Below, one piece after another: positions 1 to 13,520 of a DNA stretch of 13,745 nucleotides. This DNA is from Armatimonadota bacterium (GTDB lineage Bacteria > Armatimonadota > Zipacnadia > Zipacnadales > UBA5352), in assembly GCA_034722055.1 (NCBI GenBank), contig JAYENL010000115.1, positions 25,114-38,858 on the forward strand, given 5' to 3'. Position numbers and translations under genes: made by a program. Each line of letters opens with the position of its first letter. Position 1 is the stretch's first letter. The notes under the pieces are model-generated. The model was not told the DNA's origin and made no database searches. It saw nothing but the letters and a program-made list of their open reading frames with translations.

Positions 1-110
1 TCGTCCGCCCTGCCCGAACAGCAGTCGTTGCGTCTGTGCTGCCGTATGCCGCCATCTGCCGTTCTCTGCGCTTGTGTCATAGAGGCAGCAGCAAGCTCAG
101 GACCGTTCCC

Positions 111-275
111 GCCGTTATCTGATGTTATCTGCCGTTACTGCCGTTATCTGCCGTTGCTGATGTTCCCTGCCGTTATCTGCCGTTGCCTGCCGTTATCTGC
201 CGTTATCTGCCGTTATCTGATGTTATCTGCCGTTCTCTGCCGTTCTCTGGTGTTATCTGCCGTGCTCTGCCGTCC
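111..275. repeat. Tandem 10-bp repeat array (consensus GCCGTTATCT, variant GATGTTATCT), about 16 units plus a partial unit, abutting the 3' CCA of tRNA-Ser(GGA)
   Basis: Units read directly at 111, 121, 131 (9 nt), 140, 150 (9 nt), 159, 169 ... 259, then partial GCCGTCC 269-275 running into TGG (CCA) at 276. A degenerate remnant lies at about 41-69. Confidence 0.95.
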
Positions 276-365
276 TGGCGGAGAGGGTGGGATTCGAACC
301 CACGAGACCCGCAAGGGTCTACCCGCTCTCCAGGCGAGCACCTTCGGCCACTCGGTCACCTCTCC
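276..365 (-). tRNA. tRNA-Ser(GGA)
   Basis: Reverse complement folds as GGAGAGG/CCTCTCC acceptor stem, G73, encoded CCA, anticodon arm CTCGC-CT GGA GA-GCGGG, long variable arm, T arm GTGGG-TTCGAAT-CCCAC. Confidence 0.96.
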
Positions 366-410
366 GCCTGATACTGTGCCCTCGCAAGCTGCAGTGTCCG
401 AGCGTCGTCC

Positions 411-527
411 GTCGTTATCTGCCGTTATCTGCCGTTATCTGCCGTTCTCTGCCGTTCTCTGATGTTACCTGCCGTTATCTGATGTTATCTGCCGTTATCT
501 GATGTTATCTGCCGTGCTCTGCCGTCC
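411..527. repeat. Tandem 10-bp repeat array (GCCGTTATCT family), 11 units plus a partial unit, abutting the 3' CCA of tRNA-Ser(CGA)
   Basis: Exact 10-bp period from 411 to 520, then GCCGTCC 521-527 joined to TGG at 528. Confidence 0.95.
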
Positions 528-619
528 TGGCGGTGAGGGTGGGATTCGAACCCACGAGACCCGCAAGGGCCTACTCGCTTTCGAGGCGAGCGCAATCAGC
601 CAGGCTCTGCCACCTCACC
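528..619 (-). tRNA. tRNA-Ser(CGA)
   Basis: GGTGAGG/CCTCACC acceptor stem, G73, CCA, anticodon arm CTCGC-CT CGA AA-GCGAG, long variable arm, T arm GTGGG-TTCGAAT-CCCAC. Confidence 0.96.
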
Positions 620-649
620 GCCGGTTCGCGATCAACTGTCCGCGGTCGA

Positions 650-1282
650 TCACCAGCCGCCCACGCGTCGGTCCCACAGGCCGCCGAGGCGGTCAAGCTG
701 GGCTGTCTTCATCCACTTGACGTGGCCATCCACGAAGCAGCAGTTGGTGCCCTCATTGTGCTTCTGGAAGTCGAGTTGCTGCACGTTTGCGCCGTCCCAG
801 TGGCCTACCCACTTGGTGCCATCAGAGTCGCAGATGGCGATGGTCTCGGCCGGATACATGAGCTTAGCCAGGTTGGCGTAGTCGCACCCGACCTGCGTCA
901 GACCGCTACCGAGGTCGAGGCGGCTGAGGTTGTACCCGTAGCCGCCGCACAATGCGGTCTTGTTGTGCCAGTCGTCGCTCGGGCAGACGTAGAGCTGCTC
1001 GTTCTTGACGTACGGGAAGATCTGCGTGTTCCAGCCGGTGTAGTTCCGATTCGGATCACTTACCGGTGTAGTTCGGCAGTGCCAGGGAAGCCGTTCGTCG
1101 TAGTCCTGTGCGTACATGTTCAGCGCGATGCCAAGCTGCTTGAGATTCGACTGGCAGGAAGCCTGACGGGCCTTCTCCCGCGCCCGGGCAAAGACCGGGA
1201 AGAGGATGGCTGCAAGGATCGCGATGATCGCGATAACCACCAGCAGCTCAATCAACGTGAACCCGTTACGGGCCTTGCACAC
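650..1282 (-). CDS. Prepilin-type N-terminal cleavage/methylation protein, DUF1559 / H-X9-DG family (about 210 aa)
   Basis: [46 protein letters not shown]-terminus and C-terminal [15 protein letters not shown] (H-X9-DG). Start moved to GTG at 1282, 5 nt after RBS GGAGGTGA (1288-1295); the longer ORF to 1381 overlaps tRNA-Arg(CCT). Confidence 0.92.
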
Positions 1283-1344
1283 GTCGGTCACCTCCGATGA
1301 CCTCACGCGGCGATAGTATGGTGCGACCCTCCTGTTGAAGGATC

Positions 1345-1421
1345 TGGCGCCCCCGGCCCGAGTCGAACGGGCGACCTTCAACTTAGGAGGTTGCTGCTCT
1401 ATCCACCTGAGCTACGGGGGC
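1345..1421 (-). tRNA. tRNA-Arg(CCT)
   Basis: GCCCCCG/CGGGGGC acceptor stem, D-loop with A20, anticodon arm GCAAC-CT CCT AA-GTTGA (G27-A43 mismatch), T arm GCCCG-TTCGACT-CGGGC, GCCA end. Confidence 0.94.
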
Positions 1422-1463
1422 GCCTGGCATCGGGTCGTCGCCGCCCGACGCATCTGTGTGGCA

Positions 1464-1497
1464 GCAACGGCTCCGCGTGACCGGGCGGAGCCGTTGC
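1464..1497. other. Perfect 13-bp inverted repeat in the tRNA spacer
   Basis: GCAACGGCTCCGC (1464-1476), 8-nt loop, GCGGAGCCGTTGC (1485-1497). No U-tract, function unknown. Confidence 0.6.
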
Positions 1498-1507
1498 CGG
1501 AATACGC

Positions 1508-1583
1508 TGGCACGCCGGCCGCGATTTGAACGCGGGACCTCCGCCTCCGCAGGGCGGCGCTCTATCCCCTGAGCTACCGGCGC
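1508..1583 (-). tRNA. tRNA-Arg(GCG)
   Basis: GCGCCGG/CCGGCGT acceptor stem, D arm GCTC-AGGGGATA-GAGC (A20), anticodon arm CCGCC-CT GCG GA-GGCGG, T arm CCGCG-TTCAAAT-CGCGG, GCCA end. Confidence 0.94.
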
Positions 1584-1671
1584 GCGTTTCGCTCACCCGG
1601 CGCCAAGCGATCCCTTGACGGCGCCTTCGCGGCATGTCAAACCGCCGGCGATGCGGCGGTGCGGATCGAAA

Positions 1672-1747
1672 TGGTACGCCCGGCGCGATTCGAACGCGCG
1701 ACCCCTGGCTCCGGAGGCCAGTGCTCTCTCCACTGAGCTACGGGCGC
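1672..1747 (-). tRNA. tRNA-Arg(CCG)
   Basis: GCGCCCG/CGGGCGT acceptor stem, anticodon arm CTGGC-CT CCG GA-GCCAG, T arm GCGCG-TTCGAAT-CGCGC, ACCA end. Confidence 0.95.
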
Positions 1748-1807
1748 GTATGGGAACGACAGCTACAAGCTACAAGCGACGAGCCTACGCCCCCCAATGT
1801 CGTGAGT

Positions 1808-1893
1808 GTCGTTGTCTGCCGTGATCTGACGTTATCTGCCGTTATCTGATGTTCTCTGCCGTTGCCTGATGTTCTCTGCCGTTGCCCGCCGTC
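1808..1893. repeat. Tandem 10-bp repeat array (GCCGTTATCT family, more degenerate), 8 units plus a partial unit, abutting the 3' CCA of tRNA-Ser(GCT)
   Basis: 10-bp period 1808-1887 (e.g. GACGTTATCT, GCCGTTATCT, GATGTTCTCT), then GCCGTC joined to TGG at 1894. Confidence 0.92.
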
Positions 1894-1988
1894 TGGCGGA
1901 GAGGGAGGGATTCGAACCCTCGAAGGAGGCTTGAAACCCCCTTAATCGCTTAGCAGGCGACTGCCTTCAGCCACTCGGCCACCTCTCC
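1894..1988 (-). tRNA. tRNA-Ser(GCT)
   Basis: GGAGAGG/CCTCTCC acceptor stem, G73, CCA, anticodon arm GTCGC-CT GCT AA-GCGAT, long variable arm, T arm GAGGG-TTCGAAT-CCCTC. Confidence 0.96.
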
Positions 1989-2005
1989 GCCTTCGTTGGA
2001 CCTTC

Positions 2006-2034
2006 ATGTTACCACACATTGCGGACGCGGGCAA
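2006..2034 (-). promoter_or_regulatory. Putative sigma70 promoter of the tRNA cluster
   Basis: Minus strand TTGCCC-N17-TAACAT with an extended -10 TG; the -10 ends 17 nt upstream of tRNA-Ser(GCT). Confidence 0.65.
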
Positions 2035-2050
2035 GCGCGTCTCGGCGCCT

Positions 2051-2257
2051 GCAGCATCCAGATTCGTGCGCCCAGCGCGAGGGCCGCGGAGCAGACTGTC
2101 GGAATGCCGGTAGTAGGGGAGGGGCCGCCTGAGGCTCCAGCGTGGTTTGCTGGAGCCGAAGCCGGCCCGGCCGTTCGCGCCTCGCGACGCTGTCTCGTGG
2201 GGTCGCGGGCATCGGCGGCGTCAGTGCAGAGGACAGGGACATGAATCCGCATGCTGC
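2051..2257. mobile_element. MITE-like / structured repeat element, copy 1 (internally deleted, 207 bp)
   Basis: Near-identical to 5891-6166 apart from 3-, 13- and 53-bp indels and a few substitutions. Imperfect terminal inverted repeats GCAGCATCCAGATTCGTG / CATGAATCCGCATGCTGC. No transposase and no evident target-site duplication. Confidence 0.65.
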
Positions 2258-2281
2258 CGCGGCGCACGTCCCGGTTGTCGC

Positions 2282-3274
2282 TCACGGGCCCTCCAGCGCC
2301 CAGAATGCGTCCCTGATCTGCTCGTACTCGTGGTCGGAGAGGTCGATGGACATGGCTCCTGCGTTCTCGGTGGCCTGCGTGGCGTCGCGGGAGCCGGCCA
2401 GCGCGCAGGTTATGCCCGGCGCCGCGATGGTCCAGGCCAGGGTGATCTGCGCCACGGTCGCCTCGTGACGCTCGGCGATGGGCCGCATCACATCATCGAT
2501 GACGGCGTTCACGCGCGTGATGTTCTCCTCGGTGAACCACGGCTTGTCGCGGCGCTGGTCGCCCTCCCGGAACTCCCGATCCGGGGTGACCTTGCCAGTC
2601 AGCAGCCCCTGCTCCAGCGGGCTGTAGACCACGCTGGCGATGTCGTGGTCAGCGCACCAGGCGATGACGTCGTCGTAGCTCTGGCGCGAGAGCAGGCTGA
2701 ACTTGGGCTGGGACGAGTGCACCGGGCCGTAGGCCAGACACTCCTCGATCATCTCGGAGGTGAAGTTGCTCACGCCGATGGCGCGGATCATCCCCTGATC
2801 CAGCAGCTCCACCAGCGCCCCCATGGTCTCCTCCAGCGGCGTGGTCTGGTCGGGCCAGTGGCACTGGTAGAGGTCGATGTGGTCCACGCCGAGCCGCTCC
2901 AGGCTCTGCTCGCACTCCCACAGGATGCTGTCGCGGGTGAGGTCGCGGTAGATCTCGACCGGCTCCCCATCCGGCTTCTCGCTGTCGAAGTGATGCTGGC
3001 CTTCATCGTGATTCCAGCGCAGACCGCACTTGGTGAAGACCAGCACCTCGTCGCGGCGCCCGCGGATGCCCTCCCCGACCACGCGCTCGGAGTGGCCGAA
3101 GCCGTAGACCGGCGCAGTGTCGATGGCGTTGATCCCGGCGTCAATGGCGGCGTTGATCCCCTCTACGGCCTTCTCGTCATCGGTCCCGCCCCACAGCCAG
3201 CCGCCGATGGCCCAGGCGCCGAACACGATCGGCGTGGCCTCCAGGTCCGATGTCCCGATCTGCCGAAGCTGCAT
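2282..3274 (-). CDS. Aldo/keto reductase (about 330 aa)
   Basis: Motifs FGAWAIGG, GINAIDTAPVYGFGHSE, FTKCG, SLERLGVDHIDLYQCHWPD, IGVSNF, YSPLEQGLLTGK. Start set at ATG 3274 (MQLRQIG), 6 nt after RBS GGAGGAGG. Confidence 0.95.
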   Translation of the reverse strand: MQLRQIGTSDLEATPIVFGAWAIGGWLWGGTDDEKAVEGINAAIDAGINAIDTAPVYGFGHSERVVGEGIRGRRDEVLVFTKCGLRWNHDEGQHHFDSEKPDGEPVEIYRDLTRDSILWECEQSLERLGVDHIDLYQCHWPDQTTPLEETMGALVELLDQGMIRAIGVSNFTSEMIEECLAYGPVHSSQPKFSLLSRQSYDDVIAWCADHDIASVVYSPLEQGLLTGKVTPDREFREGDQRRDKPWFTEENITRVNAVIDDVMRPIAERHEATVAQITLAWTIAAPGITCALAGSRDATQATENAGAMSIDLSDHEYEQIRDAFWALEGP

Positions 3275-6228: not shown

Positions 6229-6277
6229 CTTGCGCTGCATCTGAACCCCTATCCGATGACGAGAATGGGTGTAAGCC

Positions 6278-8176
6278 GTGCGGATTGCAGCGCGCGCTAC
6301 CGCAGTGATCGCGATTGGGTGCCTGGTGGCGGGGTCAGCGTTAGCTCAGGCGGGAGCCCCGGACGCATCGGAGACCCCCGCGGCTCCGGCTGCCGCACAC
6401 ACCGCCGCCCGCGACCTGCAGGTCGCAAAGCCCCCCACCACTCCCGGCCCGGTACCCCCCGGCGAGGAGGAGGTGCCCACCGAGGACGCAGAGCGAGCCC
6501 TCGGGCTGGTGCCCTTCAATCACTGGGCGTATGACGCCGTCCAGATGCTGATGGACCGGGGCATCGTCATCGGCTACCCCAAGTCGGGCTTCCACGGAGA
6601 CCGGCCGCTGACCCGCTACGAGTTCGCCATGGCCATCTCGCGGCTGCTGCAGGTGCTGCGTGAGATGGAGCGGCCCGCCGTCCCCGGTGAGCAGGGGGCG
6701 CCCGGCGCCCGCGGCCCTCAGGGACCTCCCGGGCCTCAGGGCGAGCCCGGCGCGACCGGCCCACAGGGCCCCCAGGGCCCGCCGGGGCCGGAAGGGCAGC
6801 CAGGCCCCCCGCCTCCCGACGAGGAGGTGGCGGAGATCGTCGAGGACCTGGTGCGGGAGTTCCGCAAGGAGCTGGAGCTGGTCGCGGAGGGGGCCGGTCA
6901 GCTTCAGGGGGACGTCCTCAACCTCGACGAGCGGCTGCGCATCATTGAGAGCCGGCCGCGCTTCCCCGTCCCCATCGGCCTCATCGACTATCGCATTGGG
7001 ACGGTCTGCGGGGACATGGACCTCGACCACGAGTTCGACGCTCTCACTGTCAACCTGGGCCTGGAGGGCTACCTGAGCGAGCGTGAGGACCTCTACGGCC
7101 GCATCGCGCTGCAGATGGCGGACAATCGCCAGCCCCTGGCTGCCCTGGGCGTGGAGATCGGCGAGGCCGAGCGGCCCTATGCCCCGCCCGGCGACCGCCC
7201 CCATCCCGAGCTGGGGTACCTGGGCAATGACATCTACCTCGACGAGGCCTGGGTGCGCTTCCCGACCTCATGGCTTACGGACGCCACGTGGACCGTGGGG
7301 CGCCAGTTCCAGGCCTACGGTCTGGGGCTGGTCGTCAACAACGAGCGGCTCTCCCAGCAGGGGGTCCACTGCAAGATCGATCGCTTCCTGCTCGATGACC
7401 TCAACTTCCAGGGCTTCTTCGGCGGCGCCAACACGGGCTTCCTGTCAGAGCCGTGGTCCACGAACAATGATGGCTACGGGTCGCTCTACCTGGAGTACGT
7501 TCAGCCCCGCTGGTCAGTCGGCTTCCCGTGGCTGATCAACGGCTACTCCACGGATACCGCCGATGGCCGCCACTTCGATGAGGAGGCCCTGGGCTTCGAT
7601 ATCTGGTGGAACTGGTCCGGCGACCGCGATCTGTACTTCGAGTACGCCTACCAGAAGGGGCACTCCAACGGGGCCATCTACCGGCGCAACAACACCACCA
7701 ATCCCGAGGCCTACATACTCATCGCCGAGCTGTTCGACAGCGACGATCTGCTGCTTACCGGAGTCATCAGCGACGTAGAGGCGGAGTACGACATCATCTA
7801 CTCGTCGCTGCACCCCTACTACGAGCTGCTGTGCGATCCGGAGCACACCGGGCGCACCTTCCCCTACGAGCGCTGGCTGCGGCGGCCCCTCACCATCCCC
7901 AACCTTGAGGTGGTGGGCGGCCACGGCACGCTGCGCGCCATCGACAGCCGCTATCCCCTCGACTTCTTCTACTACGCGGTCTCGGCCAACAGCAACTGGT
8001 GGCAGGCCTCACCTCTGGAGGGCCTCTACTACAACAGGCTTTACGGGCTTCGGCTGCGCCACGAGCTGGCCGAGGACGTGGAGTGCAGCCTCACCTGGGG
8101 CCACCAGGAGCCGGTGAATGGACAGACCGACGATGACAGCAACCTGCTGCAGTTCCGCACACAGATAAGCTTCTGA
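6278..8176 (+). CDS. OmpM/SlpA-like outer-membrane tether: signal peptide, SLH domain, collagen-like (GXY)14, coiled coil, probable beta-barrel (632 aa)
   Basis: Signal peptide ending ALA-Q; SLH motif [24 protein letters not shown]...[15 protein letters not shown]; 14 GXY triplets at 6686-6811; heptad segment [10 protein letters not shown]...LDERLRIIE; aromatic-rich strands and C-terminal FRTQISF (beta-signal-like terminal Phe). Confidence 0.85.
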
Positions 8177-13323: not shown

Positions 13324-13520
13324 GCCCGTTTCACAACGTCGCGTAGGGCCCGCTTCACAACTCGCGTAGGTCGGGCATCCTTGTCCGACGCCCGCGTAGG
13401 TCGGGCATCCTTGCCCGACAGCACCCCGTGAGACCGGCTCCCAGCCGGCCACGCCCTCCATCGCAGGCTGGAAGCCTGCGCCACGGAGTTAGGGTCGCAG
13501 GCCGGGAGCCTGCGCCACGG
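13324..13520. repeat. Cluster of REP-like palindromes (BIME/REPIN-like)
   Basis: Two GTAG-GTCGGGCA-TCCT-TG(T/C)CCGAC units on + (13366-13389, 13396-13419); two GTGG-CGCAGGCT-(T/C)CC-(A/G)GCCTGCG units on - (13462-13484, 13496-13518); tandem GCCCG(T/C)TTCACAAC(G)TCGCGTAGG x2 (13324-13370); CCGGCT-CCC-AGCCGG hairpin at about 13434-13448. Confidence 0.8.

What the first reader, a model, noticed from the sequence alone, without database searches (positions are those of the whole stretch)
111..1988. Decamer tandem arrays fused to the CCA end of every tRNA-Ser and no tRNA-Arg
Seen: three separate arrays (111-275, about 16 units; 411-527, 11 units; 1808-1893, 8 units) of one 10-bp family. On the transcribed strand each reads CCA-(G)GACGGC-[AGATAACGGC/AGATAACATC variants]n, starting with no gap and in essentially the same register at Ser(GGA), Ser(CGA) and Ser(GCT). 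The three Arg tRNAs in the same cluster have none, and the repeat is absent from the other 11.7 kb. There are no spacers, so this is not CRISPR. Inference: this looks like a tRNA-Ser-specific 3' module. Options are (a) repeats laid down by a tRNA-Ser-targeted or tRNA-primed, telomerase-like/reverse-transcriptase process; (b) an unstructured purine-rich trailer that binds a protein or controls processing of long-variable-arm tRNAs, or is released as a small RNA; (c) a helically phased (10-bp) DNA-binding array; (d) an ancestral trailer co-duplicated with the tRNA and expanded by slippage. I know of no described system of this kind, but I cannot search the literature here.
Basis: partly seen in the sequence, partly recalled or inferred. 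Interest (0 to 1): 0.85.

Follow-up and report, generated by a model that had tools for sequence, protein, structure and literature searches.

The report
Gene-end decamer repeats, not serine-specific
The three 10-base repeat arrays behind the serine tRNA genes are real, but they belong to a genome-wide family of short tandem repeats that start flush against the ends of many genes, a known but still unexplained kind of bacterial repeat seen here in a new form.

Summary
Three arrays of the unit AGATAACGGC (tRNA strand) start 7-16 nt after the CCA of tRNA-Ser(GGA), (CGA) and (GCT). The three tRNA-Arg genes have none.

The "tRNA-Ser-specific module" reading does not hold.
- tRNA-Ser(TGA) has no array, in this genome and in 12 of 13 family genomes.
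- tRNA-His has one.
- 22 arrays lie across this uncultured Armatimonadota genome.
- 12 of the 22 start -6 to +32 nt from the stop codon of a co-directional protein gene, some inside conserved operons.
- The 5' end of the purine-rich strand always faces the abutted gene, also at the 5' ends of SRP RNA and tRNA-Leu.

Relatives keep purine-rich repeats behind the same three Ser tRNAs, but with other units and periods of 7, 9, 10 or 12. Near-identical decamers abut stop codons in Gemmatimonadota.

This matches the long simple-sequence repeats described by Mrazek 2007 and Rehm 2015, PMC4692102. This scan found the same class before on other DNA. No reverse transcriptase link, RNA structure or Rfam family was found. 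Function is unknown; I favour a co-transcribed, structure-free trailer or spacer.

The parts
111..275 (-). Decamer array 1, about 16 units of AGAnAACGGC / AGAnAACATC on the minus strand. It forms the 3' trailer of tRNA-Ser(GGA).
276..365 (-). tRNA-Ser(GGA) with encoded CCA. The array starts 7 nt after it, and those 7 nt are a partial unit (GGACGGC).
411..527 (-). Decamer array 2, 11 units. It forms the 3' trailer of tRNA-Ser(CGA).
528..619 (-). tRNA-Ser(CGA). Its 3' half and the first 24 trailer bases are identical to those of tRNA-Ser(GGA).
1808..1893 (-). Decamer array 3, 7-8 units with a 20-nt higher-order period. It forms the 3' trailer of tRNA-Ser(GCT).
   Evidence: Bridged without a difference by a public-run contig.
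1894..1988 (-). tRNA-Ser(GCT).
48..73 (-). Decayed units of the same family, distal to array 1.
   Evidence: two matches with 2-3 mismatches; downstream flank
1761..1777 (+). Short run of the genome's second repeat family (heptamer AGCTACA). It lies between array 3 and tRNA-Arg(CCG).
1345..1747 (-). Three tRNA-Arg genes (CCT, GCG, CCG) without arrays. The trailers of Arg(GCG) and Arg(CCG) hold inverted repeats; the former (ACGGCTCCGCG...CGCGGAGCCGT) recurs in relatives.

Best explanation
The three arrays are local members of a dispersed, fast-evolving family of long simple-sequence repeats. This is the 5-11-nt class known from Xanthomonas, cyanobacteria and others. Here the unit is AGAnAACGRC, with the core AACGRCAG.

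Shown:
- Each array is polar. The 5' end of its purine-rich strand lies flush against the end of a neighbouring gene.
- That gene end is most often the 3' end of a co-directional gene: a stop codon, which the first unit may overlap or even supply, or a tRNA CCA end.
- The arrays have no RNA structure, no start codons on the sense strand and no coding role.
- They sit inside conserved operons and tRNA clusters.

Inferred:
- The arrays arise and change length by slipped-strand mispairing.
- They are kept alike within a genome by copying between arrays.
- They are co-transcribed with the gene they abut, as a structure-free 3' trailer or intercistronic spacer.
- The three cluster Ser tRNAs are simply the oldest and most persistent sites. 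I think they persist because an unpaired, inert trailer next to CCA is tolerated or mildly useful for 3'-end trimming, whereas the Arg trailers are occupied by other elements (inverted repeats or a following gene).
For: Genome-wide family:
- A scan found 35 candidate clusters, 24 of them with 4 or more units.
- After dropping one coding false positive (C91) and one duplicate contig end (C186 = C117), 22 arrays remain.

Flushness and polarity among the 22:
- 12 arrays start -6, -4, -2, 4, 4, 5, 6, 6, 7, 7, 14 or 32 nt after the stop codon of a co-directional ORF. The next gene is co-directional in 9 cases and convergent in 3.
- 4 arrays follow tRNA 3' ends: Ser x3 and His.
- 2 arrays abut, with the same purine-strand 5' end, the 5' end of an opposite-strand stable RNA: tRNA-Leu(taa), 7 nt away, and SRP RNA, 13 nt away.

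Operon context (Pfam):
- NfeD-[array]-SPFH.
- ABC_tran ATPase-[array]-LptF/G.
- PfkB-[array]-rpsB.
- At the NfeD gene the array replaces the last four codons, and its first TAA is the stop codon.

Other properties:
- Array RNA is unstructured on both strands.
- The sense strand has 0 ATG/GTG/TTG in all three window arrays.
- Rfam finds only the tRNAs.

Persistence with turnover:
- The cluster's Ser trailers carry purine-rich repeats in family f1 (27 of 37) and in family f4 (7 of 10). Units differ, with periods 7, 9, 10 and 12.
- The PfkB site has decayed remnants in G005, G010 and G013.
- The NfeD site is genus-specific.

Second phylum:
- In Gemmatimonadota-titled loci, 17 of 31 arrays have a long ORF whose stop lies -6 to +7 nt from the array start. 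On the opposite strand at the far end the figure is 3 of 31.

Same rule in print:
- For GGGNATC heptamers, Rehm et al. 2015 (PMC4692102, sections 13 and 16 read) report repeats closest to the 5' neighbouring ORF whatever its orientation, 0-50 bp from the stop on the coding strand, and including overlaps of the stop codon.
Against: - Nothing here shows that the trailers are transcribed. The one RNA run laid covered only tRNA parts of other organisms.
- Pure slippage does not explain three things. Arrays abut gene ends, yet duplication inside an array does not remove a spacer. Every array of a genome shares one unit variant while genomes differ: AGAGAACGAC, AGAGAACGGC and AGAGAACAAC in three Gemmatimonadota genomes. 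And one 8-nt core occurs in two phyla but in only 9 of 251 Armatimonadota genomes sampled.
- These points favour a sequence-specific partner or an active copying process.
- Persistence behind the same Ser tRNAs across at least eight genera, with a conserved first motif ACGGC(A/G)G, argues for selection, which an 'inert filler' reading underrates.
- In Armatimonadota-titled loci from the public scan, only 2 of 12 arrays showed a stop-abutting ORF. In the unplaced MAG it was 0 of 5. The flanks there were only 400 nt.
Confidence: 0.5

Rival explanations
1. The arrays are binding platforms for a sequence-specific single-strand RNA- or DNA-binding factor, or repeated cleavage sites for an endoribonuclease, that marks gene 3' ends. 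The unit co-evolves with the factor, and the factor has moved between Gemmatimonadota and one Armatimonadota order.
For: - The core AACGRCAG is kept while spacer and period vary between 10 and 12.
- There is one unit variant per genome across 15-80 pattern matches.
- The distribution is patchy across phyla.
- The first motif ACGGC(A/G)G right after CCA is conserved in 27 of 37 family Ser trailers.
- MacGregor 2015 (PMC4679880, abstract) argued likewise for TAACTGA repeats, naming S1, Csp and CsrA as candidates.
Against: - No candidate factor was identified.
- A second, unrelated heptamer family (AGCnnnn) in the same genome obeys the same stop-abutting rule: 25 sense against 5 antisense among unflagged hits. 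This points to a property of tandem arrays in general.
- ACGGCAG is not generally enriched after stop codons once arrays are set aside: 21 of 2678 genes against 11 in a control window, and 7 of the 21 are arrays.
Confidence: 0.2
2. The arrays are one-way Rho loading sites. Read in the antisense direction they give C>G, YC-rich, unstructured RNA, so Rho would stop transcription that runs towards the abutted gene (antisense or convergent read-through). The sense transcript would be invisible to Rho.
For: - Antisense RNA of the three window arrays has C/G 1.18-1.36 and about 2 YC dinucleotides per 10 nt. Sense RNA has C/G 0.74-0.85 and 0.24-0.47 YC per 10 nt.
- Antisense RNA is markedly unstructured, z +3.5.
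- Rho is encoded in the genome.
- Convergent gene pairs in a Gemmatimonadota genome carry face-to-face arrays (G273 contigs C29 and C35).
- That YC-rich, C>G, unstructured RNA loads Rho is recalled knowledge, not tested here.
Against: - Two arrays lie in the pyrimidine orientation directly upstream of tRNA-Leu(taa) and SRP RNA, with 7-13 nt to spare. Termination there would block those genes unless a promoter lies inside the array, and the scan of window 1-2400, which holds three arrays, found no promoter-like site.
- The heptamer family with the same placement is not G>C on its sense strand.
Confidence: 0.12
3. The arrays are selectively neutral or selfish satellites with no role at all. Placement and orientation reflect only where such DNA does no harm.
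For: - The genes in front of the arrays have unrelated functions.
- Sites are gained and lost between close relatives.
- The same-genus genome has 0 matches to the pattern against 80 here.
- Rehm 2015 found no regulatory role either.
Against: - The repeats have persisted behind the same three tRNAs across two families.
- Arrays lie flush to gene ends.
- The core is shared across phyla.
Confidence: 0.15
4. The repeats are laid down by a tRNA-primed or RNA-3'-end-primed reverse-transcriptase (telomerase-like) process and fixed in DNA.
For: - Arrays begin at mature RNA ends (CCA) and are alike across loci within a genome.
- Two RT genes exist in the genome.
Against: - No unit or template-like copy lies within about 1.5 kb of either RT gene.
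- No RT gene lies in the window.
- Arrays also abut stop codons, which are not RNA ends, and 5' ends of opposite-strand genes.
Confidence: 0.03
5. The arrays are helically phased double-strand DNA binding arrays.
For: - The period is 10 bp in this genome and in Gemmatimonadota.
- The polarity holds whatever the strand of the abutted gene, which suggests a DNA-level property.
Against: Periods of 7, 9 and 12 occur at the same tRNA sites in relatives, so helical phase is not conserved.
Confidence: 0.05

Closest known systems
GGGAATC / GGGGA(C/T)T heptamer simple-sequence repeats of Xanthomonas and Nostoc (Rehm et al. 2015, PMC4692102; abstract and sections 13 and 16 read)
   Same: - Many dispersed tandem arrays of one unit, over-represented outside genes.
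- Preferred between aligned ORFs.
- Closest to the 5' neighbouring ORF whatever its orientation.
[quoted passage not shown]
- Neighbouring genes of unrelated function.
- No link to insertion sequences.
- Length and sequence differ between close relatives at the same site.
   Different: - The unit here is 10 nt.
- There are no G-tracts, so no quadruplex.
- There is no preference for four units; arrays here have 4-23 units.
- Arrays abut tRNA and SRP RNA genes.
- The hosts are Armatimonadota and Gemmatimonadota.
- Transcription was shown there by RNA-seq and is not shown here.
Long simple-sequence repeats with 5-11-nt units (Mrazek, Guo and Shah 2007, PNAS; seen only as summarised in the introduction of PMC4679880)
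   Same: - Tandem units of 5-11 nt, longer than chance.
- Sporadic across phyla.
- Slippage proposed as the source.
   Different: Heptamers dominate there. The original paper was not read, so I cannot say whether decamers at tRNA ends were noted.
TAACTGA heptamer direct repeats of marine Beggiatoaceae, Cyanobacteria and Bacteroidetes (MacGregor 2015, PMC4679880; abstract and passages read)
   Same: - One short unit is shared by distant phyla in a patchy way, with no transfer mechanism evident.
- The repeats are intergenic.
- A single-strand binding regulator was proposed.
   Different: Those repeats lie a few bases upstream of start codons and have mostly 2-6 copies. The arrays here lie at gene 3' ends and have up to 23 copies.
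REP/BIME elements with RAYT transposases (recalled; an earlier scan note, e1-1395112, reports a REP-like family in this genome)
   Same: Dispersed and intergenic, often just after stop codons and inside operons, and co-transcribed.
   Different: REPs are imperfect palindromes that form hairpins. These arrays have no self-complementarity.
E. coli tyrT distal repeats, 178 bp x 3.14 directly after tRNA-Tyr (recalled, not checked in any call)
   Same: Tandem repeats start right behind a tRNA gene and are part of its transcript.
   Different: - The unit is 178 bp and contains a copy of the tRNA 3' end.
- It is a single locus.
- It is not a genome-wide family.

Membership tests
Dispersed long simple-sequence repeats (5-11-nt units; Xanthomonas/Nostoc type) | Head-to-tail units of 5-11 nt, longer than chance allows | tested here: met
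   32 matches against 0.10 expected.
Dispersed long simple-sequence repeats (5-11-nt units; Xanthomonas/Nostoc type) | The same unit at many separate, mostly non-coding loci of one genome | tested here: met
   22 arrays on 17 contigs, with one coding false positive dropped. The reversed-pattern control gave 0 hits.
Dispersed long simple-sequence repeats (5-11-nt units; Xanthomonas/Nostoc type) | Placement next to the 5' neighbouring gene: within 50 bp of the stop on the coding strand, or near a start on the non-coding strand | tested here: met
   18 of 22 arrays; 17 of 31 against 3 of 31 in Gemmatimonadota-titled loci.
Dispersed long simple-sequence repeats (5-11-nt units; Xanthomonas/Nostoc type) | Unit number and sequence vary between close relatives at the same site | tested here: met
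Dispersed long simple-sequence repeats (5-11-nt units; Xanthomonas/Nostoc type) | Repeats are transcribed | not testable with these tools
   the RNA run covered only tRNA parts of other organisms.
Quadruplex-forming subclass (Rehm 2015) | Four or more G-tracts able to form a G-quadruplex | tested here: not met
   The unit AGAnAACGGC has no run of three G.
CRISPR array | Repeats separated by unique spacers of similar length | tested here: not met
   Units are contiguous.
REP/BIME palindromic elements | Imperfect palindrome forming a stable hairpin | tested here: not met
   both strands fold worse than shuffles.
   Ser(TGA) lacks an array in 12 of 13 family genomes, while tRNA-His and 12 protein genes have one.
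Known RNA families (Rfam 15) | Match at or above the family's gathering score | tested here: not met
   only tRNA. The sX4 hits (33-39 bits against a cut-off of 70) rest on the tRNA-Ser part.

The most novel reading that the evidence does not exclude
The arrays are the visible half of a gene-end marking system. A sequence-specific single-strand binding protein or ribonuclease, shared by horizontal transfer between Gemmatimonadota and one order of Armatimonadota, reads tandem AACGRCAG cores placed flush behind stop codons and tRNA CCA ends. It thereby sets RNA 3' ends (processing, decay or termination) in lineages of high G+C. The unit drifts together with its reader.
Probability: 0.15. Interest if true: 0.8.

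Novelty: new variant of a known kind. Interest (0 to 1): 0.4.

Why it matters
Short tandem repeats flush behind stop codons have now been seen in Xanthomonas, cyanobacteria, Gemmatimonadota and, here, Armatimonadota. They still have no explanation.

This case adds four facts that any explanation must meet:
- The same rule holds for tRNA and SRP RNA gene ends, so it is not about translation.
- Sites can persist across families while unit and period turn over.
- All arrays of one genome share one variant.
- One 8-base core is shared by two phyla.

If a reader protein or a copying mechanism exists, these decamers, with their long conserved core, are a better handle for finding it than the heptamers. 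For annotation, the plus-strand open frame 1-462 through the arrays is spurious. Arrays can also supply the stop codon of the gene in front of them.

Tried and rejected
- Expression: the one RNA run laid (X17) covered only tRNA parts, at altered spacing, so from other organisms. It says nothing about the trailers.
- Copy number: public-run contigs break inside arrays 1 and 2, so unit-number variation could not be read.
- GC skew around the 22 arrays: 15 positive and 7 at or below zero on the array strand. This is confounded with gene direction on short contigs and is not decisive.
- Identity gradient along arrays: both ends decay within 1-3 units, with no clear polarity of growth.
- Reverse transcriptase: two RT genes found, no unit within their loci.
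- Rfam at E up to 1: only tRNAs, SRP RNA and sub-threshold hits.
- Promoter and terminator scan of 1-2400: 0 promoter-like sites, and 1 terminator-like site at 944-958, not at an array.
- A general 'ACGGCAG after stop' signal: 21 of 2678 ORFs against 11 in a control window, with 7 of the 21 being arrays. No general signal.
- My first array-calling threshold for relatives was too strict; it failed G000's own Ser(cga). It was replaced by the measures.
- The 11 clusters with only 3 units were not examined.
- Literature searches that gave nothing relevant: 'short tandem repeats / intergenic / Armatimonadetes'; 'Gemmatimonas / tandem repeats / intergenic' (0 papers); 'tandem repeats / downstream of tRNA / bacterial' (3 unrelated papers). 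I found no report of these decamers, but subscription journals are not covered.
- A test of orientation against the replication arm was not possible, because the array-rich genomes are fragmented.
Full report
**1. The observation.**
The window carries six tRNA genes on the minus strand: Ser(gga), Ser(cga), Arg(cct), Arg(gcg), Arg(ccg) and Ser(gct).

Tandem Repeats Finder reports period-10 arrays at 111-273 (16.5 copies), 413-525 (11.3 copies) and 1810-1883 (7.4 copies). A 16-mer of the unit with up to three mismatches matches 32 times. All matches are on the plus strand and all lie in 48-73, 111-274, 411-526 or 1808-1883. Chance expects 0.10.

On the tRNA strand each array follows CCA after a partial unit:
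- Ser(gga) and Ser(cga): CCA-GGACGGC-AGAG...
- Ser(gct): CCA-GACGGCGGGCAACGGC-AGAG....

The Arg trailers hold no units. A public-run contig spans 1314-1921 without a difference, so array 3 is independently assembled.

**2. The arrays are not specific to tRNA-Ser.**
The window is G000:C115:25114-38858 of a 6.14-Mb, 330-contig, 68% G+C assembly. Earlier scan notes call it an uncultured Armatimonadota. This fits the titles of related records.

ARAGORN predicts 53 tRNAs, several of them long and doubtful.
- tRNA-Ser(tga) on C179 has no array.
- tRNA-His(gtg) on C117 has 12 units directly after it. C186 starts with the same array and continues into tRNA-Arg(tcg), so the two contig ends are one locus.
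- Directly after a tRNA 3' end, arrays stand at 3 of 4 Ser and 1 of 49 other predictions. Ser(gga) and Ser(cga) are neighbours that share their 3' halves, so they are not independent.

In relatives, tRNA-Ser(TGA) has a purine-rich repeat trailer in 1 of 13 family genomes (G008) and in 0 of 3 genomes of family f4.

**3. A genome-wide family with a placement rule.**
A degenerate-unit scan gave 35 clusters, 24 with four or more units. I dropped C91 (coding, not periodic) and C186 (duplicate of C117). The 11 three-unit clusters were not examined. The 22 remaining arrays divide as follows.
- 12 start -6 to +32 nt after the stop codon of a co-directional ORF with high third-position G+C.
- 4 follow tRNA 3' ends.
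- 2 abut the 5' end of an opposite-strand stable RNA: tRNA-Leu(taa) at 7 nt, and SRP RNA (RF01854, 180.9 bits) at 13 nt.
- 4 have other or unclear neighbours: C138, C135, and C284 second and third, which follow other repeats.

In every assignable case it is the 5' end of the purine-rich strand that touches the gene.

The genes in front are unrelated in function. Several arrays lie inside classic operons:
- NfeD-[array]-SPFH.
- ABC_tran ATPase-[array]-LptF/G.
- PfkB-[array]-rpsB.

At NfeD the array has replaced the last four codons, and its first TAA is now the stop. At PfkB the TAG overlaps the first unit, and the conserved rpsB promoter lies beyond the array.

**4. Properties of the sequence.**
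- As RNA, neither strand folds better than shuffles (z +1.44 sense, +3.50 antisense).
- The sense strand is about 69% purine, has no ATG, GTG or TTG, and carries TAA in most units.
- The antisense strand has C/G 1.18-1.36 and about two YC dinucleotides per 10 nt.
- Rfam finds only tRNAs. The sub-threshold sX4 hits rest on the tRNA-Ser part of that model.
- No sigma-70-like promoter is predicted in 1-2400.
- The window's other genes encode an aldo-keto reductase, a GFO/IDH oxidoreductase, an SLH-collagen-like protein, FliG, FliM/N, sigma-54 and FliE. There is no RT, integrase or nuclease gene.

**5. Relatives.**
The exact decamer pattern matches 80 times in G000 and 0 times in the same-genus genome. 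It matches 1-5 times in five other genomes of the 41 searched. The reversed control gave 0.

The Ser-Arg-Arg-Arg-Ser-Ser cluster is syntenic in 39 of 41 genomes. Excluding G000:

| Family | Ser trailers with ACGRCRG in first 20 nt | Mean purine, Ser | Arg trailers with ACGRCRG | Mean purine, Arg |
|---|---|---|---|---|
| f1 | 27 of 37 | 0.68 | 0 of 35 | 0.51 |
| f4 | 7 of 10 | 0.68 | 6 of 7 | 0.70 |
| f2, f5, f6 | 0 of 36 | 0.48-0.55 | 0 of 36 | 0.53-0.55 |

Units differ between genomes:
- AGCAACGAA and AACGAAGGC, period 9.
- GGCGAACGGC and GGAGAACGGC, period 10.
- GACAGGTACAAC, period 12.
- GGGACAG, period 7.

So the site is old and the unit is young. Across 251 Armatimonadota genomes, three tandem AACGRCAG cores occur in nine. 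These lie in families f1 and f4, plus one 9-mer hit.

**6. A second phylum.**
A scan of one genome per species found the decamer in many Gemmatimonadota MAGs, in Candidatus Zipacnadia and Armatimonadia MAGs, and in an unplaced MAG. Single hits elsewhere look like chance or coding repeats.

- In Gemmatimonadota-titled loci, 17 of 31 arrays have an ORF of 80 or more codons with high third-position G+C whose stop lies -6 to +7 nt from the array start. At the far end on the other strand the figure is 3 of 31.
- In Armatimonadota-titled loci the figures are 2 of 12 and 0 of 12. In the unplaced MAG they are 0 of 5 and 0 of 5.
- Often the stop codon shares its last bases with the first AGA.
- Three Gemmatimonadota genomes each use one variant: AGAGAACGAC (80 matches), AGAGAACGGC (20 matches) and AGAGAACAAC (15 matches).

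**7. What is known.**
Rehm et al. 2015 (PMC4692102; abstract and sections 13 and 16 read) describe GGGNATC heptamer arrays of Xanthomonas and Nostoc. These arrays:
- are dispersed and non-coding;
- are preferred between aligned ORFs;
- lie closer to the 5' neighbouring ORF whatever its orientation;
- lie 0-50 bp from the stop on the coding strand, including overlaps;
- are mostly transcribed;
- vary between close relatives;
- have no known function.

That is the same placement rule. Mrazek et al. 2007 defined long simple-sequence repeats with 5-11-nt units; I saw this only as summarised in PMC4679880. MacGregor 2015 describes a heptamer shared by distant phyla. This scan has 21 earlier notes of stop-abutting heptamer arrays, mostly in Gemmatimonadota. 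G000 itself has a heptamer family (AGCnnnn, 147 pattern hits) with the same bias: 25 sense against 5 antisense among hits not flagged as possibly coding.

**8. Reading.**
Shown:
- A dispersed, polar, unstructured decamer family lies flush to gene ends.
- Sites persist at three cluster Ser tRNAs, while units turn over.
- The core is shared with Gemmatimonadota.

Inferred:
- Origin and length change are by slippage.
- Arrays are copied between loci.
- They are co-transcribed as inert trailer or spacer.

Slippage alone does not account for the flushness, the single variant per genome or the shared core. This keeps a sequence-specific reader or an active copying process alive as the most novel reading.

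The reverse-transcriptase idea has no support. Helical phasing is weakened by the variable period. A one-way Rho-loading role fits the antisense composition, but it conflicts with the arrays directly upstream of tRNA-Leu and SRP RNA.

Noticed in passing
Genome-wide; window 1761-1777: A second, more abundant tandem-repeat family with 7-nt units (AGCTATC, AGCGGTC, AGCTACA, AGCTGCA). It gives 147 pattern hits. Many start -2 to +19 nt after stop codons, often behind the same ...ACGGC-AG junction as the decamers.
   Followed up: partly
G000:C115:23806-24070 (minus), about 1 kb left of the window: Large bacterial SRP RNA (RF01854, 180.9 bits). Its 5' end lies 13 nt from an opposite-strand decamer array at C115:24084-24178, leaving no room for a promoter outside the array.
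   Followed up: partly
Window 1785-1996, 463-632, 266-386 (minus): Sub-threshold matches (33-39 bits; cut-off 70) to Rfam sX4, a Xanthomonas sRNA model that is in effect a tRNA-Ser plus trailer. At Ser(gct) the trailer end CAUUGGGGGG aligns to the model's closing stem opposite the tRNA's CCCUCC.
   Followed up: partly
Window 13324-13419: Tandem 24/30-nt copies containing CGCGTAGGTCGGGC...GCCCGAC. The same motif flanks the arrays on C284 and resembles the REP-like family tied to a RAYT transposase in an earlier scan note.
   Followed up: no
Window 6275-8173 (+): A 633-residue ORF with an SLH domain and a collagen triple-helix repeat (Pfam). The repeat is encoded by the 9/45-nt DNA repeats at 6692-6780.
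   Followed up: no
Window 1430-1507 and relatives (loci L015-L026): The trailer of tRNA-Arg(gcg) holds an inverted repeat (ACGGCTCCGCG...CGCGGAGCCGT) that recurs across the family. The trailer of tRNA-Arg(ccg) holds an inverted repeat followed by TTGACAT in many relatives. They look like a terminator and the next promoter.
   Followed up: no
G000:C135:10990-11330: About 14 tandem copies of a 12-nt unit (CAGACCTTCGGT), about 75 nt from a decamer array. This is a third short-period family.
   Followed up: no
Window 1-462 (+): The antisense strand of the arrays is open in all frames. This gives a spurious 153-codon frame through arrays 1 and 2 that gene callers could mistake for a gene.
   Followed up: partly
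Window 653-1290 (minus): A short prepilin-type gene (N_methyl motif plus only the first 66 of 268 positions of DUF1559) sits between tRNA-Arg(cct) and tRNA-Ser(cga). G014 has a similar gene at the same place.
   Followed up: partly
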